A stretch of DNA of 32,000 nucleotides from Mycoplasma mobile 163K (GCF_000008365.1 NC_006908.1:180001-212000), one strand, 5' to 3'; shown: positions 2,923 through 23,086, counted from the stretch's first letter. Notes: generated by a model from the sequence alone, not told the origin. Program-made: numbers and translations.

Positions 2923-3471
2923 ATGTTTCTTTTAAAAATTTCTATTTCCTTTCTTTTTATTATAAGTTGTTCTACCCAGAATGAAAATTTTTATAAAGAT
3001 ATAAAATCTATAGAAATTTTAGATGGAGATACACTAAGTATTAATTCTAAGCAAATTAGATTATTTGGAGTAGACACCCCTGAGAAATTTCATTATTGGG
3101 AAAATAACATTGAATCCAATGGTTTAGAGTATTTTTTTGCAATTGAAGCAAAAAAATTTACTGAATCATTTTTCAATAGTTTGAGAGAAATAATAATTTC
3201 TCCAAAATCTAAAGATAAATTTGGTAGATTGATAGCTAGAATTCAAAACAATAAAAAAGATCTTGCTCTAGAGATAATAAAAAATGGTTTAGGAATAGTC
3301 CAATATGTTTCATTAGACAAAAAAAGTCCTTTTTTTACTAGAGACACAAATTATTTTTATTCGCTTCTTGAAGCTCAAAATATAGCTATAAAATTAAAAA
3401 AAGGTTTTTGACAATTTGAAAATATTTCCATTAAGACAATTTTTCCAAATCCAAATGTGAATTTAATTTAA
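2923..3471 (+). CDS. staphylococcal-nuclease (thermonuclease/SNase) family lipoprotein
   Basis: A lipobox is present: 'FLFIISC|STQ'. SNase catalytic-core motifs are 'IRLFGVDTPE' and 'DKFGRLIARI'. Read-through of TGA 3409-3411 extends the ORF to TAA 3469-3471. An alternative TTG start at 2869 would add a Lys-rich n-region and overlap the fba 3' end. Confidence 0.8.
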
Positions 3472-6367: not shown

Positions 6368-6426
6368 AAATCTATTTTTAATTATAATGAAAATTCTAAA
6401 ACTTGTAGAATTAAACTAATAAAGTG

Positions 6427-6432
6427 TAAAAT
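6427..6432 (+). promoter_or_regulatory. candidate -10 box (TAAAAT) 6 nt upstream of the K+ channel ATG
   Basis: The sequence reads gTGTAAAAT-ttaaat-ATG(6439), with no SD. Confidence 0.3.
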
Positions 6433-6438
6433 TTAAAT

Positions 6439-7512
6439 ATGAAAAATATTTTTAAAATTATTAATTATGAAAAAAATTTAGAGTTATGAAAAATTTTAAA
6501 TTATATTGCTGTTAGCGATAGTGATGATTCATATATAAGATCTAAAAATGTAAAATTTGCAAAAATTTTAAAGCTTTTATATTTAATCTTAGTTATAACA
6601 ATTATTTTCATATCATTTATTCCATTATTTAGTGCTACAAAAGATGGACAAAATCTTTTTCCGATTTCTCTTTCTATCACAATTAATTATGTTTTGTTTT
6701 CTATTTTAATAATTGATTATTTTTTTAGATGAATAACATTTCCTTTAAGAGTAGAAAATAAAAAATATTCATTGTTGTTTTTTCCTTTCACAGGTGTTTC
6801 TATAGTAATGTTTTTTGCGCTATTACCTTCTTTAATTATAATTATTTCTCCTTCAATAACTTCAAATGCGAACAGTGCCTTTTTTCTTGCTTTTTCACAA
6901 ATTGTTAATTCTTTAGTTTTTTTAAGATTAGGGAGATTAATTTTATTTTTAAATGTTCTTACTCCTTTTACAAGCATTAAAAATGTTTTTGTGAAACAAC
7001 GAGTTTTATTATTTAATGTTTTTATTTTTTTAATTATTATTTCTGTCTTATTTGCCCTTATTATTTTTCAAGCAGAATTAGTCGAAAATGCTAAAATAAC
7101 TAATTTTTGGGATGCTTTTTATTTTACAATAGTGTCTTTAACAACAATCGGTTTTGGAGATATTAGTCCTGTAACACCCCTTGGGCAAGCAATGGTTGTA
7201 ATTTTAGCACTTATAGGAGTAGCAATATTTACAATCCCAGCAGGTATTATTGCAGGAGGATTTTTGCAAGAATTGCAAAATAATGAAGCCTTTCAAAAAC
7301 AAAATGAAAAATCAAAAGAAAGTCAAAAAGGAGTTCTTTTACAAAAAATTATTGCAGGTAGTGCAAAAGCTTTGATTAATGTTTCAAAAAAAACTTCAAG
7401 ACCAATTAAAAAAAATAGCTTGCTTTTTTCAAAAAAATCAAGAAAAGAAGATGAGATTATAAATGAAATTTTAAGTGCAAAGAAGAAGAATAAAAACAAG
7501 GAAAGAATTTAG
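6439..7512 (+). CDS. six-TM potassium channel (voltage-gated-like topology), selectivity filter TTIGFGD
   Basis: ATG 6439 is the first start after an in-frame TAA. Two TGA-Trp codons (6487, 6730) join it to track ORF 6772-7512. The pore reads 'FWDAFYFTIVSLTTIGFGDISP'. Five further hydrophobic helices are present, including an S4-like 'LVFLRLGRLILFL'. The C-terminal tail is Lys-rich. Confidence 0.85.
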
Positions 7513-7517
7513 AAAAA

Positions 7518-8522
7518 ATGAAGAAAAAAATGAAATGAAAAATATTTACTAGCACTAGTATTTCAATTGCTTCGATAATTGCAATTGTTGCCCCAACAAC
7601 AGTTGTTTTAGTTTCAAATTCAAATACTGAATCAACTTTAAATAGTTTAAAAAAAGAAATACAAGATAAAATTGAAGATAGAATAATTAGAGGTTCTGAT
7701 ACAATTTTACCCACAGCTTTGAATCTTACAAATTTAAGAAATAACATTTTAGGTCTTCCAAATATAGACAATTTAACTTATTTTTTTAAATTTACTAATC
7801 AAGCAACTAATTCAAATGGAGGAAATAATTTTAACGGAAGTATTTCTATAGATATAACATTGCGATTGAATGGGCAAGAAGTTTTATTAGAAAATCAATT
7901 GGTTAGAAATTTTAGAACAAATGCTTTTGAAAGTTTTGCAAATATAAAAGTGGAACCCTTTAATGCTCAAACACTTAGACCAAACGCGTTTTCAGATTTT
8001 AGAAAAGGATTACCTCCTTCAAATATTTTTAAGCTTAGTTTAACAACTAATGTTGAAGAATATTTAATAATCGTAAGGGATGAAACAAGTGTTAGTTTGA
8101 GAATTAAAGGAACAGATCCAAGTGATAATATAAATCCTTTAGATAGAACGATCACAGTTTCAGGATTTGTTTCAAGAAATGATCCTCAAGGAATTGCAAA
8201 TCTTGCAATTCAGAGAATTGATAATTTTGAATCAGGAACAATTGCTCTAAAACCAGAATATTTAAATAATTCCTTTCAAGTAAATTTAATAAATAATGAA
8301 AACTTGATTACTTTAATAAATAGAGATTTTGAATTATTATTAGGGATTGAAAATATAAACAATATAACTTATTCTATATCATATAAAATTGAAAGTTTTA
8401 ATGAAACTTCAGTTTTTGCAAGAATTATAATTACTATTTCAAGAGATGGTGTCCCACCTGCTAATTCTCAAACATCAAGACCTATTGAAATAATTATTAG
8501 AAAAATGTCAGGAAGTTTTTAA
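7518..8522 (+). CDS. exported membrane-anchored modular protein A (334 aa), paralogue of 8522.. and 11216..
   Basis: ATG 7518 gives MKKKMKW (TGA 7536), then the TM segment 'SIASIIAIVAPTTVVLV', in frame with track ORF 7719-8522. There are about three modules, ending VRNF / VSGF / C-terminus. It contains 'GLPPSNIF' (8007), the motif repeated in protein D. Confidence 0.75.
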
Positions 8523-9238
8523 TGAAAAAAAGAACTAAAATTATTGCTTTTTCACTTATTGCAACTTCAGTTGTTTCAATTGTTGTTCCTACAACAATTG
8601 TGTTAGTGAATCAAAATCAAAAAATTGAAGAAAATAAAAATTTTGCAAAGCAAATCTTAAATTTTATTGAAAAAAATCAAAAAACTAATAATCAAGTAAG
8701 GATAAGAACAAATTCGGTTTCTATATTTCAAATTTCTAAACGGAATTTTGAAAATTTTTTAGAGAATAAACCAATCATTGAAAATATTATTGGATTGCTA
8801 GGAATTTCTCTAAATTCACAATCAATTAGTTTGTCAACAGAATTTGTAGATAAAAACATCAACCCCAATCCAAATATGATTATTAATTTTGCAATAGAAT
8901 TAGGAGAAGGATCTGCAAGAGTTAAAGAAAGCATAAATATTTCTGTTACAAATGGTTTTCAAACAAGTGAAACATATTTGAATAAGATCAAATTAAATTA
9001 TGAAAATAATTTTACTTCAGGACAAATTAAATTAAGAAATTCGGCTTCTATAGAAAATTTGGATGAAAATAATTTAGTTCAAAATTTAATTGGCATAGAA
9101 ATATTTTCAAATACAAAAATTTCAACATATAATTTTATTAAGAATAACGAAGCCAGAACAATTAATTTTGGTTTTAAAATTAGTTTAATTGATTCTCAGA
9201 TTTTTGATCAAACAATTATTTTTACAATAAATTTTTAA
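8522..9238 (+). CDS. exported membrane-anchored modular protein B (238 aa)
   Basis: The ATG overlaps the stop of protein A (TAATG at 8520-8524). The anchor is 'LIATSVVSIVVPTTIVLVNQNQ'. There are two modules, ending TNGF and TINF. Confidence 0.75.
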   Translation: MKKRTKIIAFSLIATSVVSIVVPTTIVLVNQNQKIEENKNFAKQILNFIEKNQKTNNQVRIRTNSVSIFQISKRNFENFLENKPIIENIIGLLGISLNSQSISLSTEFVDKNINPNPNMIINFAIELGEGSARVKESINISVTNGFQTSETYLNKIKLNYENNFTSGQIKLRNSASIENLDENNLVQNLIGIEIFSNTKISTYNFIKNNEARTINFGFKISLIDSQIFDQTIIFTINF

Positions 9239-9246
9239 GGAGTAAA

Positions 9247-11235
9247 ATGACAAAGTTAAAAAAATCTTTACTTGCATTTGGTTCAATTGCTTTTACATCA
9301 AGCTTAACAATCACAATTGTTTCTTGTTCGACAGCTTCTATTTCAGATTTGCAATTAGTAATTTCGAAAATTAATTCGAGTAAGATAACGGCATCCCAAA
9401 ATGTTTTTGCCTCTTCAATTACATCGGACGAAATGATTTTACAAAATATAAATTTAAAAACAATTCCTAGTGTTTCTACAAATATTAATCTAATTTTTCA
9501 ATTAGTAAATGGGGGAAATGCTAATGATCAAACAGGTTCTTTAGATATCAAAATAATTGCAACAAATGGAACTGGAGTAAACCAAATTTCAATTGAGTCC
9601 CAGACATTAACTGTTACAGGATTTTTAACACAAACACAAGTAAATAATACTAATTTAGAAATTTTAAAAAATATTTTTGACAGATTTGAAACATCTTTAA
9701 AAAATGGGGTGTCTTCAATTGTTAGTGCTAGAACTCAAATCACTTCAAATGAAACAAATCCTGTAATAGGTTCTAATACTTTGCCTTCAAAAGTATCTCA
9801 ATCAATTTTAAATTCTACTTTAATTCAAGGGCTTCAAGAATTCCAATCATTAAATTCTGCTTCAAATAGTGTAAATTTAACTTTAGAGGCAAATTATATT
9901 GATGGTAGTGCAAATGATGCATTAGGAACAATTCAAATTAGTTTACAAGGTACAATTGCAGGAAATATTCCAACAATTTCAAAATCCAAATCAGTTACCA
10001 TTGGAGGATTTTTGAAAGCAGAGAAAAATCAAATTCTAGAAAGTAATAAAAATTGGATAAGAGATATTTCAAAAGAAACTATACAAAATTTTGCAAACTC
10101 AAATAAAGAAGCATTTATAAATGATCAAGGAAAATTGCTCTTAAGTACTTCTTTGAAGAACAGAAATTTTTCTTTGAGAAGCAGTATCAAGAACGATAAT
10201 TTAGTTATGAATTATGGTAGTTTTAGTTTCTTTAATACAATTATTAATTCAAATCAAGATTATTCTATTGTGGCAACTATTTCAACAGGAGAAAATATAT
10301 CAAATGACTTTGAAGGAAGTGTATTAGTTGATTTTCAAATTACAATAGGAAATCGAGAAATAGGAACTTTTTTTTCAAGTTCTCTAATTGAAAAAGTAAA
10401 TCTTATTGGTTTTAAAAAGTCTTCTAGTTTACACAACACTATTTTTGTAAGAGATAAATTTAATTATAGACTTAGTGTCTTAAACACAGGAGAAATTAGC
10501 GCAGAACTTAATGGATTTGACACCAATTTAAACCCAATTTTAGAAGATTTAACTAGAATTGTAATTCCTAGTACTGTTGAAGACATTGGTGGGAATATTT
10601 TTAAGGTAAAATCAATTAAGGATTCAGCTTTTATAAATTCTAATTTGATTAGATTAGATTTATCAAATGCATCTAATTTAGAAAGTATTGGAAATTTTTC
10701 TTTTTCTAATAATAAAATTGAAAATTCAATTCAAATTCCAGCTTCTTTAAAAAATATTGGAGAAAATGCTTTCAGTAATAATTTAATTAAAAATATCAAT
10801 TTTGGAAATGCTTCTTTAAGTCAATTAGAAAAAATAAATAAGGCTGCTTTTTTGAATAATAATTTAGAATCTTTTCAAGTAAATGGAGTTTTTTCAAGCT
10901 TAAATTTTATTGGAGAAAATGCTTTTGCAAATAGCAATCCTGAAAATTCAAGACTTTCTACAATATCATTAGATTCAATAATTAATTTTTTAAATGATTT
11001 TACTTTTACTCAAGATTTGACAATTGAAAAAGGTGCTTTTGTTAGAGAATTAAAATCTGATTTTTGAATTCCATATCAAAACTTAAATGCTTTAAATAGA
11101 TTACATGTTTTAAAAAATAGTATTAAATTCTTGAGTAATCAAAATAACAACGGAATAGATACTTCATTTGGAAATGTCGCAGTGTCTAATTTTAAAACTA
11201 ACATTCAGGAGAAATATGAAAAAAATATTAAGTAA
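9247..11235 (+). CDS. lipoprotein with three repeat modules and a C-terminal BspA-type leucine-rich-repeat region (662 aa)
   Basis: AAGGAG precedes ATG 9247. The signal peptide ends in lipobox 'TIVSC|S' (Cys codon 9325-9327). Modules end TVTGF / TIGGF / LIGF. Read-through of TGA 11065-11067 extends the track ORF to TAA 11233-11235. Confidence 0.8.
10552..11049 (+). repeat. BspA-like (LRR_5-type) leucine-rich repeats inside the lipoprotein
   Basis: The segment shows a recurring ~23-25 aa pattern: 'IVIPSTVEDIGGNIF', 'LSNASNLESIGNFSFSNN', 'IQIPASLKNIGENAFSNN', 'LEKINKAAFLNNN', 'SSLNFIGENAFANS', 'LTIEKGAFV'. Confidence 0.6.
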
Positions 11236-14200
11236 AACATTAATTTCAAGTTTAGTAATTGGTGCAACAATTATTGTTGTTCCCACAGCGATTGTTTTTT
11301 CCAACAATATCAAAAGCAATCAACAAATTCTTTTAAATTCAATTAATGAAAATAGTTTTGCAATTGAATCAAACACTGTAGCTCCTAAAAATGGTAAATA
11401 TCAATCTTTACCTGAAGGAATTGTTCTTAAATTTCCAACAGGATTAACAAATGAATCAATAGAAGATTTTGAAGTAATTAATTCTTCTTTTTCTTCTAAA
11501 AAAATCACACTAATTATTAAATTAAAATCCGGTTTAAAAAAAGCAATCATTTTAAATTCTTTTATTACTCAAGAATTTGCATTAGAACAATTAAATATTA
11601 GAACTTCAATTTTAGCTAGTTTCCCATTAAATAATTTATCAGATCAAATTGGATTACCACCAAGAAATTTATTTAGATTTTCAACTTCTTTTTTGAATTT
11701 TAATATCGAAGATTTTATTACTTCATATTCATATACAATAAGTCCAGATAATCAGAATCTGACTTTAAAATTAAATGTTTCTGACACTGTTTCAAGAAGT
11801 GTTAATTTTTCAAAAAATCTTTTTTTTGAAAATGACCAAATACAAAAAAATTTAGAGAAAAACGTAAGTGTGTTAATTAGCCCTTTATTTCATCAAAATG
11901 TTTTATCTGCTAACATGAATCAAAATGAAGAAATTTTAGGAAAAGGATCTCCAACAGAAGATTTTGTAAAATTTATTTTTTCAAATAATATATCTAAAAA
12001 TGATATTGATTCTTTTAATATAAAAAAGAATAATTCCACTAGTGAAATTGATTTGAGTTTAACTTTTTTAAACTCAAACAATTCATCTATTGATATTGTT
12101 TATTCTTTGGGTAATGTTAATAATTTACCTACCGAGCAAAAAGCATTAAATTTATTTAATTCTTTAGAAGTTAAAGCAAATGAAACATTAATTCCAAATA
12201 ATACACTTGGAGAACAAATGGGAATTCCACCTATTTTGAATTTTAATTTAATTTTTAATGATTTTGTAACTTTAAATACTATTAAATCTTATAGACTTGA
12301 AAAAGTTAATTCAACAACAGTTAATTTAATTTTGATAAGTTTTAGTGGTTTGACAATAACAAAAACTATATCAGGTTTTATTCCTTCAATAGAAGATTTT
12401 AAAACGATTTCAGTAAAAGCATCTTCTGTTGTTCCGATTCCTTCTAACGACATTTTTAATTCAACAAATTTAATTTTATTAAATTCACTTTTTGTATTTT
12501 CTTATCCTGAAGGAATAGGCATTGAAAATATTAAATCTTTTTCACTTGAAAGAATAGATAATTTAAGTGTAAAACTTACTTTAAATGGGCAAATTTCAAA
12601 TTCCTTTTCACTAGAAATAAGTTCCTTTCCTTTAATGAATGATGCTATGAAAAATATTGATAACATAGAAGTAAGTGTTACACCAATTGGAATTAGACCT
12701 TTTAATAATTTGACAACTACTTTAGGCATTCCTCCTAAGAATCTCTTTAACTTTAATTTTAAAAACAATAGCTTAATTAATGTAAAAAATATTATTTCAT
12801 ATTCTTATAATGTGAATAACAATAATAGTATTTTTACTTTGAGAATTAATTTTTTAAATAATTTATTTAAAACTTTTGATATACCTTTTGCAAATTTCAA
12901 AAATTCAACAACAGCCCAAGAAGCATTTCAAAATTTAAGTGTAACTATTTCAAATGATCTAAAAGTTTTACCTGAAATGATTCATTTTTCTGAAGGTTCA
13001 TTACCTAATTTTGTAAATATCGATAGTAGTGTTACAAATATAGGAGCCAATTTTATTGATTCTTATACAATTATTAGGGTTAATGAAAATCAAATTCAAC
13101 TTACTTTAAGGAATCATCAAAATTCAACAAGATTAATTTTTTCAAAAATTTTTTCTCTTCCTCAATCTTTAATAACCCAAAATTCGCAACGTGAAATCGA
13201 TTCTTTAATAGTAAAAGCCTTTGTAAAACAAAATTCTTTATTATCAAATCAATTAAGTTTTGTTAGTTCAAACAAAATTGTTGAAAATATTGGAGATATT
13301 AGTTTCGAACTTAGAAATATTGAAAATGGCCCTCTTTTAAGTAATTTTAAAATCAACTCAATTATAGTAGAAAGTTCAAGACCTATTAACGGAGAAATTA
13401 CGGCATCATTAATTTTTTCTTCACAAAATCAAGGTTTGCTTAGAAAAAATATAATAATTTCAGGTTTTAAAAAATCATCAGAAATTTTTGATCAGTTTAA
13501 AATTTCAAGTTCTTCAAGAATCAATTTACCTATTGTTTCAGAAAATGAAATAACTTTTAGCGCTTCAAATTTTAGAATAAATTCATTACCTCAACCTCTT
13601 CAAATGTCTAATATTCAATCTTATGTAATTAGAAAAACAAATCCTTTATTAGGGACAATTACTGTTGATTTTACTATTAATCAAGAATTGTATGGAAGTA
13701 CTTTAATAATTCCTAATGTAGAAATTTCAAATTTTTCAAATACTTTTTCAAGTTTAAATACTATTTCAGGAACTATTTCAAATATGAATAATATTTTACC
13801 AATAATTCCTAATACAAATGAAATTTTTTATGATCCTTTGACTTCTAATATTTCATTTAATAATTTACCATCTCCTTTAATGAGTAAAAATATTTTATCT
13901 TATTCATTCATTACAGGAAGTGAAAATTTTGAAAAAGGATCGATAAAAATCAAAATTAAACTTACAGATGAATTTTTCAATTTAGAAAATTTAAATGTAG
14001 AAATTTTAGGATTTTTAACAACAGATATTCTTAAAAATAACATTATTAATTCAAATGCAAATGATTTTAAAGCGACATACATAGGTAATAGAACAACAAA
14101 CTTTGTTGTAGGTGAATCAATAAATATTAGAGATATTTTATTTTTAAATTTACCAGTAGGATTAAAATCAGATGTTTTTCTTAGTTTTAAAGTATTGGAA

Positions 14201-14320
14201 ATTAACCAAGATGCATCTGAATTAAAAATTGAATTTGATTTTGCAAATATTAATCCCTTCAATAATTTAAATAATTTACCAGCTTCTCAAAGAGTTTTTA
14301 CATTAGTAATTTCTGCTTAA
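11216..14320 (+). CDS. exported membrane-anchored modular protein D (1034 aa), about 11 tandem diverged modules
   Basis: ATG 11216 is preceded by CAGGAGAAAT, which lies inside the 3' end of the upstream gene (20-nt overlap). The anchor is 'LVIGATIIVVPTAIVFSNN'. The track's TTG at 11168 is less likely. There are no in-frame stops up to TAA 14318-14320. Confidence 0.8.
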   Translation: MKKILSKTLISSLVIGATIIVVPTAIVFSNNIKSNQQILLNSINENSFAIESNTVAPKNGKYQSLPEGIVLKFPTGLTNESIEDFEVINSSFSSKKITLIIKLKSGLKKAIILNSFITQEFALEQLNIRTSILASFPLNNLSDQIGLPPRNLFRFSTSFLNFNIEDFITSYSYTISPDNQNLTLKLNVSDTVSRSVNFSKNLFFENDQIQKNLEKNVSVLISPLFHQNVLSANMNQNEEILGKGSPTEDFVKFIFSNNISKNDIDSFNIKKNNSTSEIDLSLTFLNSNNSSIDIVYSLGNVNNLPTEQKALNLFNSLEVKANETLIPNNTLGEQMGIPPILNFNLIFNDFVTLNTIKSYRLEKVNSTTVNLILISFSGLTITKTISGFIPSIEDFKTISVKASSVVPIPSNDIFNSTNLILLNSLFVFSYPEGIGIENIKSFSLERIDNLSVKLTLNGQISNSFSLEISSFPLMNDAMKNIDNIEVSVTPIGIRPFNNLTTTLGIPPKNLFNFNFKNNSLINVKNIISYSYNVNNNNSIFTLRINFLNNLFKTFDIPFANFKNSTTAQEAFQNLSVTISNDLKVLPEMIHFSEGSLPNFVNIDSSVTNIGANFIDSYTIIRVNENQIQLTLRNHQNSTRLIFSKIFSLPQSLITQNSQREIDSLIVKAFVKQNSLLSNQLSFVSSNKIVENIGDISFELRNIENGPLLSNFKINSIIVESSRPINGEITASLIFSSQNQGLLRKNIIISGFKKSSEIFDQFKISSSSRINLPIVSENEITFSASNFRINSLPQPLQMSNIQSYVIRKTNPLLGTITVDFTINQELYGSTLIIPNVEISNFSNTFSSLNTISGTISNMNNILPIIPNTNEIFYDPLTSNISFNNLPSPLMSKNILSYSFITGSENFEKGSIKIKIKLTDEFFNLENLNVEILGFLTTDILKNNIINSNANDFKATYIGNRTTNFVVGESINIRDILFLNLPVGLKSDVFLSFKVLEINQDASELKIEFDFANINPFNNLNNLPASQRVFTLVISA
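11333..14317 (+). repeat. protein-level tandem array of ~85-95 aa modules, with a ~170-190 aa two-module super-repeat in the first half
   Basis: The motif G(L/I)PP recurs at 11651 (IGLPPRNLFRF), 12221 (MGIPPILNFNL) and 12725 (LGIPPKNLFNF). Each copy is followed ~20 aa later by (I/K)SY..., then a beta-like 'N.T(L/V).L...'. Junctions read x-[G/S/N]-F (LNSF, KNLF, ISGF, ISSF, FANF, ISGF, ISNF, ILGF). The DNA copies are strongly diverged. Confidence 0.6.
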
Positions 14321-14324
14321 AATT

Positions 14325-14352
14325 AAAAAAATCACTCTTGAGTAATTTTTTT
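14325..14352. terminator. weak AT-rich hairpin between the convergent genes D and ftsY
   Basis: The sequence is AAAAAAATCACTC-TT-GAGTAATTTTTTT, an imperfect stem with one mismatch and a tiny loop. It overlaps the ftsY stop codon. Confidence 0.25.
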
Positions 14353-15631
14353 AATCGATAGAATAATTTTCAAGAACCATATCTTTAGTTAAACCATAAA
14401 TAAAAGCATCTAGATCAAATTCTTGTAAATCATCCATTTTTTCACCTAAACCTAATAGTTTAACATCAATATTCACTAAGTCTTTAATTGAAATAATGAT
14501 TCCTCCTTTTGAAGTTCCATCCATTTTTGTTAAAACAATACCACTAAGTGGAGTTACTTCTTTAAAAGCACTAGCTTGACTTAATGCATTTTGACCATTT
14601 GTCGCATCTAAAACTAATAAAGATTCATGAGGAGCTTCTGGCAAAAAGCGAGAAATTGTTTGATTTATTTTAGCTAATTCATTCATTAAATTAACTTTAT
14701 TTTGTAATCTTCCAGCAGTATCAATAATTAAAAGATCATAGATTTCATCTTTTGCTTTTTGCATTGCTTTAAAAACAACGCTCGATGGATCTTGACCTTC
14801 TTTATCAGGTTTTACAATATCTACTTCTAACCTATTTGCTCAGATACCTAATTGTTCTACAGCTCCAGCTCTAAATGTATCTCCAGCAGCAATTAAAATT
14901 TTATAACTTTTTTGTTTATACATATTTGCTAATTTAGCAATAGTGGTTGTTTTCCCACTACCATTAACACCGACCATTAAAATAACATTTAATCTGCCTT
15001 TTTCGATTTTTAAATTAGTATCAACAATAGAATTATTAGTATAAATAACAAATAATTTATCTGCAATAATTTCGCCAATTAATTTTGGATCACTTACATT
15101 TTCAATTTTAACAACTTTTTTAATTTCCTCGATAATAGTAAAAACAAGATTTACAGAAATATCAGACATTATTAAAATTTCTTCTAATTCTTCAAAAAAG
15201 TCATCATCAATTTTATTGTATCTATTTTGTAATTCCATTACTCTTGTACTAAGTGCCGAACTACTTTTATCTAAACCAGCAATGTATTTGTTTATTTTGT
15301 TTTCTTTTTCAAGTTTTGTTAAATTCTTTTCTTTTTCTCTTTCATTTAATTTAAGTTCTTTTTTTGATATTGAATCATCATTATTTGTTTTTCTTGAAAA
15401 TATTTTTGTGAAAATACTTGTACTTTTTTTTGAATTTGTTTGTACTGTTTTTATTTCACTAGCATTATTTTTTTCAAGTTCTAACTCTATAGATTGATCT
15501 TTATCTAAAATATTTTCTTCAATTTTATTTTTTATAAATAATTCTTCAATATTTTGTTCGACATTTTGATTCTTTTTTGATTCTAATTCAGAGCCAAAAA
15601 GACGTTCTTTTAATTTTTTAAAAAATCCCAT
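14351..15631 (-). CDS. ftsY: signal recognition particle receptor FtsY
   Basis: Track ORFs 14351-14764 and 14840-15631 share one frame and join via TGA 14840-14842. Motifs are '[15 protein letters not shown]', 'DTAGRLQN' and '[10 protein letters not shown]'. The N-terminal region is Lys/Glu-rich. Confidence 0.93.
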
Positions 15632-18195: not shown

Positions 18196-18498
18196 TTAAA
18201 TCTTATTAATTAAATCTATTAATTCATCTGCAGATTTAAATCCAATAACTTTTTCTTTTAATTCTCCATTTTTGAAAAAAAGTGTAGAAGGTGTGTTTTT
18301 AATTCCAAATTCTCTTGTGAATTCTCTATCTTTATCAACATCTATTTTGAAAATTTCATAACCTTTAGAACCCACTTCTTCTAAAATTGGCCCATACATT
18401 CTACAAGGGCCACATCAAGTTGCATGAAAAACAAGAATTTTTTTATCCTTATTAAATTTTTCAAAGTCAATTTGCTTTTTTACTACTTCATGAACCAT
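18196..18498 (-). CDS. trxA: thioredoxin (100 aa), copy 1
   Basis: Track ORF 18196-18399 extends upstream through TGA 18415-18417, which encodes the Trp of 'WCGPC'. It reaches ATG 18498, preceded by GGAGAG. Confidence 0.9.
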
Positions 18499-18611: not shown

Positions 18612-18917
18612 CTATTTATATTCATTTAAGATTTCTAAAATTTCTTCTTCAGCTCTAAAACCTACAACTGTTTCAACAACTTTTCCATCTTTGAAAACAA
18701 ATGAAGTTGGAAATCCTGGAATTTCCATTTCTTGAGCAAATTCTTTGTCTTTATCTCCATCTACTCTATAGATTTCAAAACCTTTTTCTGAAACTCTTTC
18801 AAGCTCTGGACCTAATAATTTACAAGGTCCACATCATAAAGCATGAAAATTTAATAATTTTAATCCTTTATTGAATTCTTTAAAATTAATTTCTGATTTT
18901 GTTACATGTTTAATCAT
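18612..18917 (-). CDS. trxA: thioredoxin (101 aa), copy 2
   Basis: This ORF is absent from the track because TGA 18834-18836 (again the Trp of 'WCGPC') splits it. It runs from ATG 18917, preceded by AGGAGAA, to TAG 18612-18614. I checked the frame codon by codon. Confidence 0.88.
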
Positions 18918-21846: not shown

Positions 21847-22383
21847 TTAATAAAAGAGATCTTTTCTAATTTTGGACAATTTTTCTCTTATCTCGGAAGG
21901 TTTGCTTTTTAATATTTTTGAAAGTTTTCTACCATGAACATTTTTTTCAACAACAAGATCGTACATGTTCAAATCATCTTTACTTAAAATTTTTAAATCA
22001 ACCGGAACTTGATACAAATCATAATTATCTTCTAGCGCAAATTCTAAATCTTCTATTCAATAATATTTGTTTAAAACACTATATTTTTTTCCGTAATACT
22101 CTCTACACTTATTTTGCATTAAAAATTTTGAAAACTTAAAAAAGAATGTTCTAAATGTTACATTTTGTTCTGGTCTAAATTTCTTCTTTAAATCTTCAAA
22201 TTTGAAATAAACTTCATTTAAAAGATCAGTGTATTCCAAAAAAGGAATATTATATTTTTTTAAAATTGCTTTTGCACTTGAAATTAAATAATCATTATGT
22301 TTCATCACTCAGTTTTTTAAAGTGAATTTACTTACTTCTTCAAGTGTTTCTATTTTTACTATTTTATTCGAATTTATCATCAT
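21847..22383 (-). CDS. sigma-70 family (SigH-like / group 4-like) RNA polymerase sigma factor candidate, 178 aa
   Basis: Track ORF 22057-22308 extends both ways through TGA codons 22057 and 22309. It runs from ATG 22383 to TAA 21847-21849. The region-2-like stretch is 'DLLNEVYFKF...FRTFFFKFSKFLMQNKCREY'. The region-4-like HTH is 'LSKDDLNMYDLVVEKNVHGRKLSKILKSKPSEIREKLSKIRKDL'. It occupies the position of B. subtilis sigH (rlmB-...-sigH-rpmG-secE-nusG). An alternative in-frame ATG lies at 22419. Confidence 0.55.
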
Positions 22384-22393
22384 ATTTATTTTA

Positions 22394-23086
22394 TTACCTA
22401 CTTTTTTTGCTAAGATCATGAAGTAAAATTCCTGTTGCTACTGCAGCATTTAAAGATTGTACTGTTCCACTCATCATAATTTTTACCTTTACATCTAATG
22501 AATTTATCATTGTTTTTGAAAGCCCACTATGTTCATTTCCAATTATCAAACCAATTGGAAAATTTATTGGTGCATTTTTTATTTCAAATGAATTTTCATC
22601 TAGCATTGATCCATAAATTCAAAAACCGTGTTCTTTTAAAAAATTAATAGCTACAATTAAAGAGTCTATTTTTATAATTTTTACATTATAAAAACCACCA
22701 GATGATACCTTCAATGCAACATCGTTTATCTCAACAGATCTTTTGGAAGGGATTATAATATAGTTTCAACCAAAAGCATTTGCACTTCTTAGAATGGAAC
22801 CGAAATTAAAGGAATCTTGAATGTGATCCAAAATTAACACTTTATCAGCTTTATCTTTAATTATATTTTCTAGAGAAAAATAATTAAATTCTTTTAATTC
22901 TGCAACAATATTTTGATGATTTGTTTTTACTAGTTCATTCAAAGTTTGTAAATTGGTATATTCAACAATAATATCTTTGTAAATACTTTCATAATCTTTT
23001 TTATTTATCAGAAAAATTTTTTTTATTTCAACTTTATTTTCTATTGCCTCTCTTATTGAGTTTTTACCACTTAAATACAACTTCAT
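22394..23086 (-). CDS. rlmB: SpoU/TrmH-family RNA 2'-O-ribose methyltransferase (RlmB/YacO-like)
   Basis: Track ORFs 22394-22606 and 22766-23086 share one frame and join through TGA 22766 and 22619. Motifs are 'DSFNFGSILRSANAFG', 'IIGNEHSGLS' and 'VQSLNAAVATGILL'. Synteny places it after cysS. Confidence 0.82.

What the first reader, a model, noticed from the sequence alone, without database searches (positions are those of the whole stretch)
7518..14320. Accessory block: four-gene operon of exported proteins built from ~20 diverged copies of one ~90-aa module
Four same-strand ORFs are packed head to tail. There is a TAATG overlap at 8520-8524, an 8-nt gap at 9239-9246, and a 20-nt overlap at 11216-11235 with an internal CAGGAG SD. 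I see no hairpin until after 14320, so one transcript is likely. All four products carry export signals: three signal-anchor-like helices and one lipobox. All four are made of a recurring ~85-95 aa unit. Each unit has a beta-like alternating stretch (GSLDIKIIATNG, GTIQISLQGT, GSVLVDFQITIG, SVSLRIKGTD, GTITVDFTINQ, GSIKIKIKLTD). About 15-25 residues later it ends in a hydrophobic-x-[G/S/N]-F junction (VTGF, IGGF, LIGF, VSGF, TNGF, ISGF, ILGF ...). My hand count is about 3+2+3+11 modules. From memory this resembles the Mollicutes 'lipoprotein-associated' domain (Pfam Lipoprotein_17, PF04200). However, the copies are very diverged and three of the four carriers are not lipoproteins. It is the only non-housekeeping block in the window, about a fifth of its length. 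The role is unknown; adhesin, host-ligand binding or an antigenic shield are inferences only.
Basis: partly seen in the sequence, partly recalled or inferred. Interest (0 to 1): 0.7.

Follow-up and report, generated by a model that had tools for sequence, protein, structure and literature searches.

The report
Mycoplasma mobile repeat-stalk surface protein operon
This is a tightly packed, conserved cluster of four Mycoplasma mobile genes for membrane-anchored surface proteins built from ~90-residue stalk repeats of at least two sequence families, one protein carrying a leucine-rich-repeat binding tip; it is a new variant of the known mycoplasma repeat surface proteins rather than a new kind of system.

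Summary
The window comes from Mycoplasma mobile 163K and uses genetic code 4.

**One module in about 20 copies.** This claim is only partly supported. I sorted 19 segments as follows.
- Seven are Lipoprotein_17: C m1-3, A m1 and D m8-10.
- Seven form a second repeat that I call "GLPP-type", with the motif G[LI]PPxN[LI]F…IxSY…LxL…F: A m2 and D m2-7. These are clearly related to one another (leave-one-out z = 7-20). They have no detectable sequence link to Lipoprotein_17.
- Five are unassigned: A m3, B m1, B m2, D m1 and D m11.

**Homologues and conservation.** D matches only itself among 1.84 billion representative proteins. The block is not strain-specific, though. An uncultured relative carries channel-A-B-C-D in the same order at 41-45% identity.

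**Extent of the unit.** A K+ channel gene ends 5 nt upstream of A, so it may belong to the same transcription unit.

**Best reading.** The block encodes a set of surface stalk proteins. C is an adhesin-like protein built as anchor, Lipoprotein_17 stalk and LRR tip, the same domain order as the gliding leg Gli349. Function is inferred, not shown. Interest is moderate.

The parts
6439..7512 (+). K+ channel gene (Ion_trans/Ion_trans_2) that ends 5 nt before gene A. It is probably the first gene of the same transcription unit.
   Evidence: Pfam gives Ion_trans_2 at E 3.8e-16 and Ion_trans at 1.1e-13. The stop codon TAG is at 7510-7512 and the ATG of A at 7518. The same adjacency occurs in the relative's contig L002, where the channel is 60.6% identical.
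7518..8522 (+). Gene A (334 aa, AAT27620/Q6KIF6, 'expressed protein'). It has a signal anchor at aa 8-33, a Lipoprotein_17 module m1 at aa 46-134 (nt 7653-7919), a GLPP-type module m2 at aa 135-223 (nt 7920-8186), and an unassigned C-terminal segment m3 at aa 224-334.
   Evidence: Module m1 scores 21.5 bits against PF04200 (E 3e-4), just under the cut-off. The ortholog A2 scores 23.1 bits, and 27.3 bits for m1 alone, above the cut-off. Module m2 has leave-one-out z 8.1 and no shuffle out of 300 reaches its score. Module m3 shows no signal. RefSeq starts the gene at 7530, giving 330 aa.
8522..9238 (+). Gene B (238 aa, AAT27621, 'expressed protein'). It has a signal anchor at aa 6-29 followed by two ~90-100 aa segments whose membership of either repeat family is unproven.
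   Evidence: There is no Pfam hit for B, B2 or their segments. B m1 against the C modules gives hhalign E 0.0018 and 15% probability. B m2 shows no signal. B ends in ...TINF, which resembles a module end (read directly from the sequence).
9247..11235 (+). Gene C (662 aa lipoprotein, AAT27622). It has a lipobox IVSC with Cys27 (nt 9325-9327) and three Lipoprotein_17 modules at aa 36-128, 163-257 and 294-391 (nt 9352-9630, 9733-10017, 10126-10419). A BspA-type LRR_5 domain covers aa 455-589 (nt 10609-11013).
   Evidence: PF04200 scores E 9.3e-16 over 3 stretches and PF13306 scores E 8.8e-13. The NCBIfam HupY/LrrG adhesin model matches the LRR region at E 7.6e-12. PDB relatives of the LRR include PcpA 4cp6, 4fs7, 4fd0 and 4fdw. 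Orthologs P0006 and P0007 are 44-45% identical.
11216..14320 (+). Gene D (1034 aa, AAT27623, 'expressed protein'). It has a signal anchor at aa 7-30 and an unassigned m1 at aa 36-117. Six GLPP-type modules cover aa 118-657 (nt 11567-13186). Three Lipoprotein_17 modules m8-m10 cover aa 661-935 (nt 13196-14020). The last segment, m11 at aa 936-1034, is unassigned.
   Evidence: D matches only itself among 5.8 billion and 1.84 billion proteins. GLPP modules have leave-one-out z 7-20. Module m7 was recovered at 21.9 bits against a best decoy of 12.0. Module m8 scores 16.6 bits against PF04200. The consensus of m8-10 plus A m1 scores 33.2 bits. A partial ortholog D2 is 44.5% identical.
7584..7609 (+). 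DNA encoding the shared signal-anchor motif (I/V)(V/A)PT(T/A)(I/V)V. The copies at 8579-8604 in B and 11273-11298 in D are 81-85% identical at the DNA level.
   Evidence: This is direct-repeat family D2. The motif is also present in A2, B2 and D2. The N-termini of A and B match by BLASTP at E 0.001.
14322..14355 (.). AU-rich hairpin flanked by A and U runs, lying between the convergent genes D and ftsY. It looks like a bidirectional terminator.
   Evidence: The RNA fold gives -7.1 kcal/mol with z -1.96 against shuffles.

Best explanation
The block is a conserved, probably co-transcribed cluster. It may start at the upstream K+ channel gene. It encodes four surface-exposed proteins, each held to the single mycoplasma membrane by its N-terminus: an uncleaved signal anchor in A, B and D, and a lipid-modified Cys27 in C.

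Outside the membrane each protein is a chain of ~85-100-residue, beta-rich stalk modules. These belong to two sequence families. One is the known Lipoprotein_17 domain (C x3, A x1, D x3). The other is a lineage-restricted 'GLPP-type' repeat (A x1, D x6). The GLPP-type repeat has a similar predicted strand order and may be a very remote derivative of Lipoprotein_17.

C carries a BspA-type leucine-rich-repeat domain at the far end of a three-module stalk. That is the layout of a fibrillar adhesin, and it has the same domain order as the M. mobile gliding leg Gli349. The most likely role is static binding of a host or surface ligand by the LRR tip of C. D would be an extended rod of eleven modules, and A and B shorter rods, forming an accompanying surface layer or complex.

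Shown here: the genes, their junctions, the anchors, the domain content, the conservation and (from the annotation) expression. Inferred: co-transcription, surface exposure, rod shape, ligand binding, and any interaction among the four proteins.
For: - **Organism and expression.** The four proteins are exact matches to M. mobile 163K entries named 'expressed protein' or 'putative expressed membrane/lipoprotein'.
- **Packing.** The genes overlap or sit a few nt apart. The only terminator-like hairpin beyond chance expectation lies after D.
- **Anchors.** Each protein has one N-terminal hydrophobic segment. The single Cys in all four proteins is in a lipobox.
- **Domains of C.** PF04200 occurs three times and PF13306 once. 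The LRR is related to the adhesins PcpA and HupY/LrrG and to the Bacteroides BspA-like structures 4fd0 and 4fdw.
- **Lipoprotein_17 in A and D.** Supported.
- **GLPP family.** Leave-one-family-out z is 7-20 with no shuffle out of 300 reaching the score. The HMM scores at most 4.5 bits on the other genes called in the window.
- **Structure models.** The AF2 model of a GLPP module has pLDDT 74.5 and pTM 0.66 and is nearly all-beta with three long C-terminal strands. The lower-confidence model of the Lipoprotein_17 module D m10 has the same element order.
- **Conservation.** The relative carries channel-A2-B2-C2-D2 with near-identical protein lengths at 41-45% identity. The LRR (57%) and C m2 (59%) are the best conserved parts.
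- **Literature.** Lipoprotein_17 repeats build the Mvsps, Gli123 and Gli349. PF04200 is used as a stalk domain of fibrillar adhesins. Gli349 is a TM segment plus 18 repeats plus a Foot whose LRR part was modelled on 4h09, and its M. pulmonis ortholog on 4fdw.
Against: - There are no localisation, binding or transcript data for these four genes here. No held paper mentions the inferred locus tags.
- The two papers most likely to mention these genes, Jaffe 2004 and Wu & Miyata 2012, could not be read.
- Foldseek found no significant PDB match for either model. The fold assignment therefore rests on Pfam and on predicted secondary structure alone.
- B and three terminal segments have no solid family assignment.
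- The consensus promoter scan is uninformative in this 25% GC DNA: 59 sites found against 58 expected. Internal promoters cannot be excluded.
- Similarity of C to Gli349 is architectural only. Gli349 did not appear among the hits of C.
Confidence: 0.6

Rival explanations
1. One reading: all ~19 segments, including the GLPP-type ones and those of B, are copies of one ancestral Lipoprotein_17 module that diverged beyond sequence recognition. The block would then be a pure Lipoprotein_17 family cluster.
For: - Module lengths are alike, at about 82-107 aa.
- The layout is shared: a short LP/PP motif, then an (I)xSY strand, then an alternating LxLxL strand, then an xIxI(S/G)F end (alignments).
- MAFFT puts both types into one register.
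- The AF2 models of one module of each type have the same order of elements: two short strands, a short helix, then three long strands.
- Both types occur in tandem within the same proteins (A and D).
- In Gli349 only 6 Lipoprotein_17 domains are listed, although 18 repeats are reported. Undetected diverged copies are therefore precedented.
Against: - HMMs trained on one type give mean z of 0.9 and 0.1 on the other type.
- hhalign gives 0.2% probability between the two types.
- The GLPP consensus gives no PF04200 hit at E<=10. The equally small consensus of A m1 with D m8-10 gives 33.2 bits.
- A m3, B m2 and D m11 match neither family.
- The model of the Lipoprotein_17-type module has low confidence (pLDDT 56). 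The similarity in secondary structure is therefore weak evidence.
Confidence: 0.4
2. The proteins are an antigenic shield or variable surface coat like the Mvsps. They would be abundant decoy proteins whose job is to cover the membrane and vary, not to bind anything specific.
For: - They share domain family, organism and anchoring modes with the Mvsps.
- They are Asn/Ser-rich, repeat-built and cysteine-free.
- They evolve faster than the neighbouring channel: 41-45% identity against 60.6%.
Against: - One-to-one orthologs in the same order and with near-identical lengths exist in a second species. That is not the pattern of an expanding and contracting variable family.
- There are no DNA-level module repeats and no simple-sequence tracts of the phase-variation type.
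- The Lipoprotein_17 domains of C total 58 bits for three, against 30-70 bits per repeat in the Mvsps. The domain coordinates of C match none of Mvsp A-P.
- C carries a dedicated LRR binding-type domain that is better conserved than the stalk.
Confidence: 0.2
3. The four proteins are extracellular accessory subunits or partners of the K+ channel encoded immediately upstream, and the five genes form one functional unit.
For: There is a 5-nt gap between the channel gene and A. The channel-A adjacency is conserved in the relative, with a 21-nt gap. A divergent intergenic region upstream of the channel gene (6368-6438) is the obvious place for a promoter.
Against: Gene adjacency in tiny, densely packed mycoplasma genomes is weak evidence of shared function. 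No known channel uses Lipoprotein_17 or LRR_5 partners (my own knowledge). Only two genomes support the linkage.
Confidence: 0.05
4. The apparent modules are an artefact of the biased composition (Asn, Ile, Ser and Leu rich) and of hand-picked motifs, and there are no real repeats outside C.
For: - All-against-all BLASTP shows no significant repeat.
- Ungapped autocorrelation shows no significant period.
- Whole-protein Pfam scans of A, B and D are empty.
Against: - Composition-matched shuffles never reach the leave-one-out scores of 14 modules.
- A non-seed module (D m7) was recovered at 21.9 bits against a best decoy of 12.0.
- The other M. mobile proteins called in the window, which have the same composition, score at most 4.5 bits.
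- The autocorrelation test also misses the three Pfam-confirmed domains of C, so it is simply insensitive.
Confidence: 0.03

Closest known systems
Mvsp variable surface proteins of Mycoplasma mobile (for example MvspI, with 16 Lipoprotein_17 repeats)
   Same: They come from the same organism. They are surface proteins built from tandem ~83-100 aa Lipoprotein_17 (PF04200) modules. C is anchored by a lipobox, as described for MvspI.
   Different: Mvsp repeats score 30-70 bits each and sit in multi-gene mvsp loci (MMOB33xx). Here the repeats are much weaker: 58 bits for three in C, and sub-threshold in A and D. C matches none of Mvsp A-P by domain coordinates. Over half of D is a different repeat, and C adds an LRR domain. 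One-to-one orthologs exist in another species.
Gli349 and Gli123, the gliding-machinery surface proteins of M. mobile
   Same: They have an N-terminal transmembrane anchor rather than a lipobox, and arrays of ~100-aa repeats that score only 10-30 bits against PF04200. A m1 scores 21.5 bits and D m8 16.6 bits. Gli349 ends in a Foot whose N-terminal part is an LRR modelled on BspA-type structures (4h09; 4fdw for MYPU2110). The LRR of C hits 4fdw and 4fd0 by sequence.
   Different: These proteins are far smaller: 238-1034 aa against 1128 and 3183 aa. They are not in the gli locus (MMOB1020-1050). In this block the LRR sits on the lipoprotein, not on a TM-anchored protein. No link to motility is known.
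BspA-type LRR (Pfam LRR_5) surface adhesins such as S. pneumoniae PcpA, streptococcal HupY/LrrG and Bacteroides/Tannerella BspA-like proteins
   Same: C aa 455-589 matches PF13306 (48.7 bits, cut-off 27.7), NCBIfam HupY/LrrG (E 7.6e-12, far below that model's full-length cut-off) and PDB 4cp6 PcpA (E 9.7e-8).
   Different: Only the LRR module is shared. Anchoring and stalk differ: choline-binding, LPXTG or Por-type anchors in those proteins, against a mycoplasma lipobox plus Lipoprotein_17 stalk here.
Fibrillar adhesins in general (stalk repeats plus a distal adhesive domain)
   Same: The architecture of C is anchor, then repeated stalk domain, then a distal binding-type domain. PF04200 is on the published list of stalk domains.
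   Different: The stalk is short, with three modules. A, B and D have no recognisable adhesive domain. There are no near-identical tandem repeats.

Membership tests
Pfam PF04200 Lipoprotein_17 | Sequence scores at or above the Pfam gathering cut-off (22.4 bits): protein C | tested here: met
   C scores 58.4 bits, E 9.3e-16, over three stretches.
Pfam PF04200 Lipoprotein_17 | Sequence scores at or above the cut-off: A m1 and D m8-10 | tested here: inconclusive
   Whole A and whole D give no hit. A m1 alone scores 21.5 bits and D m8 alone 16.6 bits, both below the cut-off; D m9 and m10 give none. However, the ortholog A2 scores 23.1 bits (27.3 for m1 alone). The consensus of A m1, A2 m1 and D m8-10 scores 33.2 bits, E 6.7e-8. 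hhalign to the C modules gives 58-74% probability, while 0 of 90 non-self reversed controls exceed 5%. Membership is supported at the profile level, not for each single sequence.
Pfam PF04200 Lipoprotein_17 | Sequence scores at or above the cut-off: GLPP-type modules (A m2, D m2-7) | tested here: not met
   There is no PF04200 hit at E<=10 for any single module or for the family consensus. Cross-family HMM tests give mean z of 0.1-0.9. hhalign gives 0.2% probability.
Pfam PF04200 Lipoprotein_17 | Sequence scores at or above the cut-off: B, A m3, D m1, D m11 | tested here: not met
   There are no Pfam hits. Only weak hhalign signals appear, for B m1 (15%) and D m1 (8.6%).
Pfam PF04200 Lipoprotein_17 | Fold: a small beta domain with a three-strand core, with domains joined by a helix and short loop (as described in bioRxiv 10.1101/2022.09.07.507039) | tested here: inconclusive
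Pfam PF13306 LRR_5 (BspA-type leucine-rich repeat) | Sequence scores at or above the cut-off (27.7 bits) | tested here: met
   C aa 455-589 scores 48.7 bits, E 8.8e-13. Solved relatives are 4cp6, 4fs7, 4fd0 and 4fdw.
Bacterial lipoprotein (lipobox) | A signal peptide ending in a lipobox with an invariant Cys | tested here: met
   C reads ...LTITIVS-C27-STAS after a basic, hydrophobic N-terminus, and this is the only Cys in the four proteins. Lipid modification itself cannot be tested here.
Mvsp family of M. mobile | Being one of the named Mvsp A-P proteins, with strong (30-70 bit) Lipoprotein_17 repeats | tested here: not met
   The domain coordinates and scores of C match none of the Mvsp entries in Table S3 of the Gli123 preprint. 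The repeat scores here are far lower.
Mvsp family of M. mobile | Variable (switching) expression | not testable with these tools
   No phase-variation-type DNA repeats were seen. Expression variation needs experiments.
Gli349-type gliding leg | Sequence homology to Gli349/MYPU2110 and location in the gli123-gli349-gli521-gli42 locus | tested here: not met
   The neighbours here are tsaE, a K+ channel and ftsY. Gli349 is not among the hits of C or D. A direct alignment to Gli349 was not possible because its sequence could not be fetched.

The most novel reading that the evidence does not exclude
The GLPP-type repeat is a genuinely new stalk-domain family confined to the M. mobile lineage. The block would then be a conserved 'static' adhesion operon. 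Its lipoprotein C (anchor, Lipoprotein_17 stalk, BspA-type LRR tip) would be a surviving relative of the non-motile binding protein that Miyata and colleagues proposed as the ancestor of the gliding leg Gli349. C might then bind sialylated oligosaccharides as the Gli349 Foot does.
Probability: 0.15. Interest if true: 0.65.

Novelty: new variant of a known kind. Interest (0 to 1): 0.4.

Why it matters
**Surface repertoire.** M. mobile is the model for a unique ATP-driven gliding motor. Its surface parts (Gli123, Gli349) and its coat proteins (Mvsps) are all built from Lipoprotein_17-type repeats. This block adds four expressed, conserved but unstudied members to that repertoire.

**Blind spot in annotation.** More than half of the largest protein consists of a second repeat that current domain libraries do not recognise. 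Pfam-based counts of stalk repeats in mycoplasma surface proteins are therefore likely to be underestimates.

**A testable candidate.** C repeats the Gli349 domain order in miniature. It is a tractable 662-aa candidate for testing how an LRR tip on a Lipoprotein_17 stalk binds host ligands. It also bears on the proposal that the gliding leg evolved from a static adhesin.

The practical consequences are modest. Nothing here changes the known kind of system.

Tried and rejected
1. All-against-all BLASTP of the four proteins gave no significant internal repeats. It is too insensitive for this question.
2. Ungapped BLOSUM autocorrelation gave no significant period in any protein, including C with its three Pfam domains. 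It is uninformative.
3. An HMM seeded only on the C and C2 modules reached A m1 and D m8-10 only marginally, at scores near the decoy level in the first round. I replaced it with leave-one-out, hhalign and consensus-to-Pfam tests.
4. A search of the 5.8-billion-protein database with the GLPP alignment returned nothing, not even A or D themselves. I treat this as a failed search, not as evidence.
5. phmmer of D against 1.84 billion representatives returned only D itself.
6. Two scans of genome contigs (alignments D+D2 and A+A2) and one of metagenome contigs found no relative. M. mobile itself was not retrieved either, so it appears to be absent from that genome collection.
Full-length A with module rows gave a scrambled MAFFT alignment and was not submitted.
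9. PDB sequence searches with both module profiles gave only chance-level hits. The weak ubiquitin hit (E 0.03) and the SIN1-RBD hit (E 0.12) for the GLPP profile are probably noise.
10. NCBIfam on the N-terminal anchors gave only sub-threshold matches to assorted models, a few of them mycoplasma N-terminal membrane-anchor families.
11. The sigma-70 promoter scan found as many sites as in shuffled sequence.
12. The inferred locus tags MMOB1330-1380 appear in no held paper. Jaffe 2004 (PMC509254) and Wu & Miyata 2012 (PMC3486091) are not held.


Full report
**Source and gene structure**

The window is 25% GC. Its ORFs merge only when UGA is read as Trp. Protein D is an exact match to a protein of Mycoplasma mobile 163K, whose genome is 777,079 bp. 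All four products are deposited as AAT27620-AAT27623 (UniProt Q6KIF6-Q6KIF3). They are named 'expressed protein' or 'putative expressed membrane/lipoprotein'.

From WP accession numbering relative to Gli123 (MMOB1020 = WP_011264622), the genes are probably MMOB1340-1370. This is my inference. No held paper mentions those tags.

The gene coordinates are A 7518-8522, B 8522-9238, C 9247-11235 and D 11216-14320.
- TAATG at 8520-8524;
- an 8-nt gap at 9239-9246 behind AAGGAG;
- a 20-nt C/D overlap with CAGGAG at 11206-11211.

An AU-rich hairpin flanked by A and U runs sits at 14322-14355, between D and the convergent ftsY.

A voltage-gated-type K+ channel gene (6439-7512; Pfam Ion_trans and Ion_trans_2) ends only 5 nt before A. 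It is preceded by a divergent intergenic region. The unit may therefore have five genes. The consensus promoter scan is useless in this AT-rich DNA, finding 59 sites against 58 expected.

**Export signals**

Each protein has exactly one strongly hydrophobic segment, at the N-terminus. The only cysteine in all 2,268 residues is Cys27 of C, in the lipobox IVSC.

A, B and D share the motif (I/V)(V/A)PT(T/A)(I/V)V inside the anchor, as do their orthologs. At the DNA level this motif is still 81-85% identical over 26 nt among the three genes. The N-termini of A and B match at E 0.001. The three anchors therefore appear to be paralogous.

**Domain content of C**

Pfam gives Lipoprotein_17 (PF04200) at E 9.3e-16 over three stretches. 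It gives BspA-type LRR_5 (PF13306) at E 8.8e-13 over aa 455-589.

The LRR part also matches the streptococcal adhesin model HupY/LrrG. Among solved structures it matches pneumococcal PcpA (4cp6) and the Bacteroides BspA-like proteins 4fs7, 4fd0 and 4fdw.

**Are all four proteins made of one module?**

Whole A, B and D have no Pfam or NCBIfam match. D finds only itself among 5.8 billion clustered proteins and among 1.84 billion representatives searched exhaustively with phmmer.

Composition-matched shuffles, reversed sequences and the other genes called in the window served as controls. Two families emerged.

*Family 1 is Lipoprotein_17:*
- C m1-3 are the Pfam-confirmed domains.
- A m1 scores 21.5 bits, just under the 22.4-bit cut-off. 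Its ortholog passes, at 23.1 bits for the whole protein and 27.3 bits for the module.
- D m8 scores 16.6 bits.
- A consensus built only from A m1, A2 m1 and D m8-10 scores 33.2 bits, E 6.7e-8.
- hhalign links these modules to the C modules at 58-74% probability. None of 90 non-self reversed-profile controls exceeded 5%.

*Family 2 is what I call GLPP-type,* after its motif G[LI]PPxN[LI]F…IxSY…LxL…F:
- It comprises A m2 and D m2-7 (alignment).
- Leave-one-family-out HMM scores are 13-38 bits, with z of 7-20. No shuffle out of 300 reaches them.
- A non-seed module, D m7, was recovered at 21.9 bits against a best decoy of 12.0.
- The HMM scores at most 4.5 bits on every other gene called in the window.

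*The two families are not detectably related by sequence:*
- Cross-family HMM tests give mean z of 0.9 and 0.1.
- hhalign gives 0.2% probability.
- The GLPP consensus has no PF04200 hit at E<=10.

*Five segments remain unassigned.* B m1 (hhalign 15%) and D m1 (8.6%) have weak links to Lipoprotein_17. A m3, B m2 and D m11 have none. Even so, A ends in …SGSF and B in …TINF, which look like module ends.

The observation of recurring ~90-aa units is therefore real for 14 of 19 segments. It reflects at least two sequence families, not about 20 copies of one.

**Structure**

An AF2 model of D m4 with a seven-row GLPP alignment reached pLDDT 74.5 and pTM 0.66. It shows a short helix, three short strands, and three long strands at residues 48-57, 60-67 and 72-78.

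A model of the Lipoprotein_17-type D m10 reached only pLDDT 56. Its element order is similar: strands at 26-29 and 34-37, a short helix, then long strands at 50-60, 65-73 and 78-86.

This agrees with the published description of a three-strand Lipoprotein_17 core joined by a helix and loop. It keeps open the possibility that GLPP modules are very remote Lipoprotein_17 derivatives.

**Conservation**

The two 44-45% identical homologs of C lie on Logan contigs from two SRA runs. One 5.1-kb contig carries, in order, a K+ channel gene, A2 (335 aa, 41.5% identical), B2 (242 aa, 40.6%), C2 (644 aa, 44%) and the first 233 aa of D2 (44.5%).

The channel is 60.6% identical. Within the block the LRR (57%) and C m2 (59%) are the best conserved parts.

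The block is therefore a conserved syntenic unit with stable protein lengths. It evolves faster than its neighbour. It is not a strain-specific accessory island.

No other relative was found in the species-representative genomes or in JGI metagenomes. The DNA shows no module-sized or phase-variation-type repeats.

**Comparison with what is known**

Lipoprotein_17 repeats are already described in 15 Mvsps, Gli123 and Gli349 of M. mobile. Repeat scores are 30-70 bits in the Mvsps and 10-30 bits in the Gli proteins. Pfam 33.1 listed 22 M. mobile proteins with the domain. C is not one of Mvsp A-P, judging by domain coordinates.

PF04200 is treated as a stalk domain of fibrillar adhesins.

Gli349 is described as a transmembrane segment, 18 repeats of ~100 aa, and a C-terminal Foot. 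The N-terminal part of the Foot is an LRR modelled on 4h09. That of its M. pulmonis ortholog was modelled on 4fdw, a structure that the LRR of C also hits by sequence.

C thus has the same domain order as the gliding leg in miniature. A and D resemble Gli123 and Gli349 in using a TM anchor and weak Lipoprotein_17 repeats. This resemblance is architectural. No sequence homology to Gli349 was seen or could be tested directly.

**Verdict**

The best-supported reading (confidence about 0.6) is a conserved, probably co-transcribed set of membrane-anchored stalk proteins on the cell surface. C would be an adhesin-like protein that presents an LRR tip. Ligand, localisation and any complex formation are inferred.

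It is a new variant of a known kind. It adds new, unannotated members of the mycoplasma repeat-stalk surface proteins, and a second repeat family that is invisible to current domain libraries and to exhaustive single-sequence search.

Interest is moderate (0.4). The most novel reading not excluded is that C is a relative of the static ancestor of the gliding leg and that GLPP is a new stalk fold. I give that about 0.15.

Noticed in passing
window 6439-7512 (+): A voltage-gated-type K+ channel gene (Ion_trans/Ion_trans_2) ends 5 nt before gene A. The same channel-A adjacency is present in the uncultured relative, so the 'four-gene operon' may be a five-gene unit.
   Followed up: partly
window 7584-7609, 8579-8604, 11273-11298: The DNA encoding the (I/V)(V/A)PT(T/A)(I/V)V motif inside the signal anchors of A, B and D is 81-85% identical over 26 nt, far better conserved than the rest of the genes. 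The same peptide motif occurs in the three orthologs. Its role (membrane insertion, sorting or processing) is unknown.
   Followed up: partly
window 7518 vs 7530: Gene A has two in-frame ATG starts. GenBank uses 7518 (334 aa) and RefSeq uses 7530 (330 aa, WP_156768862.1).
   Followed up: no
window 2923-3471 (+): This is a lipoprotein with a staphylococcal-nuclease domain (lipobox ...FIISC; SNase E 5.9e-12). It is a second exported, non-housekeeping gene in the window, so the block is not the only one.
   Followed up: partly
L002 (SRR26596557) and L003 (SRR26596566): An unidentified ~25% GC, code-4 organism carries the orthologous block at 41-45% protein identity, with the channel at 60.6%. It is absent from the GTDB species-representative genomes searched, so it may be an undescribed relative of M. 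mobile.
   Followed up: partly
GLPP-type module profile (A aa 135-223; D aa 118-657): Two independent weak hits point to ubiquitin-like (beta-grasp) domains: polyubiquitin chains in the PDB (E 0.03) and Pfam RBD_SIN1 (E 0.12-0.17). They are probably chance, and the AF2 model is nearly all-beta, but the coincidence is unexplained.
   Followed up: no
window 18196-18498 and 18612-18917 (-): Two adjacent ~100-aa ORFs both contain a WCGPC motif and have similar N-termini, so they look like tandem thioredoxin paralogs.
   Followed up: no
window 21847-22419 (-): A 190-aa ORF between a tRNA/rRNA-methyltransferase-like gene and secE/nusG has only sub-threshold Pfam hits, to Sigma70_r2 (E 7.6e-4) and YezG-like (E 5.5e-4). 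It may be a divergent sigma-like factor.
   Followed up: no
Genome-contig collection: Peptide patterns taken from D and A (for example VAPKNGKY) did not retrieve M. mobile itself. The source genome seems to be missing or masked in that collection, so negative results from it say little about close relatives.
   Followed up: no
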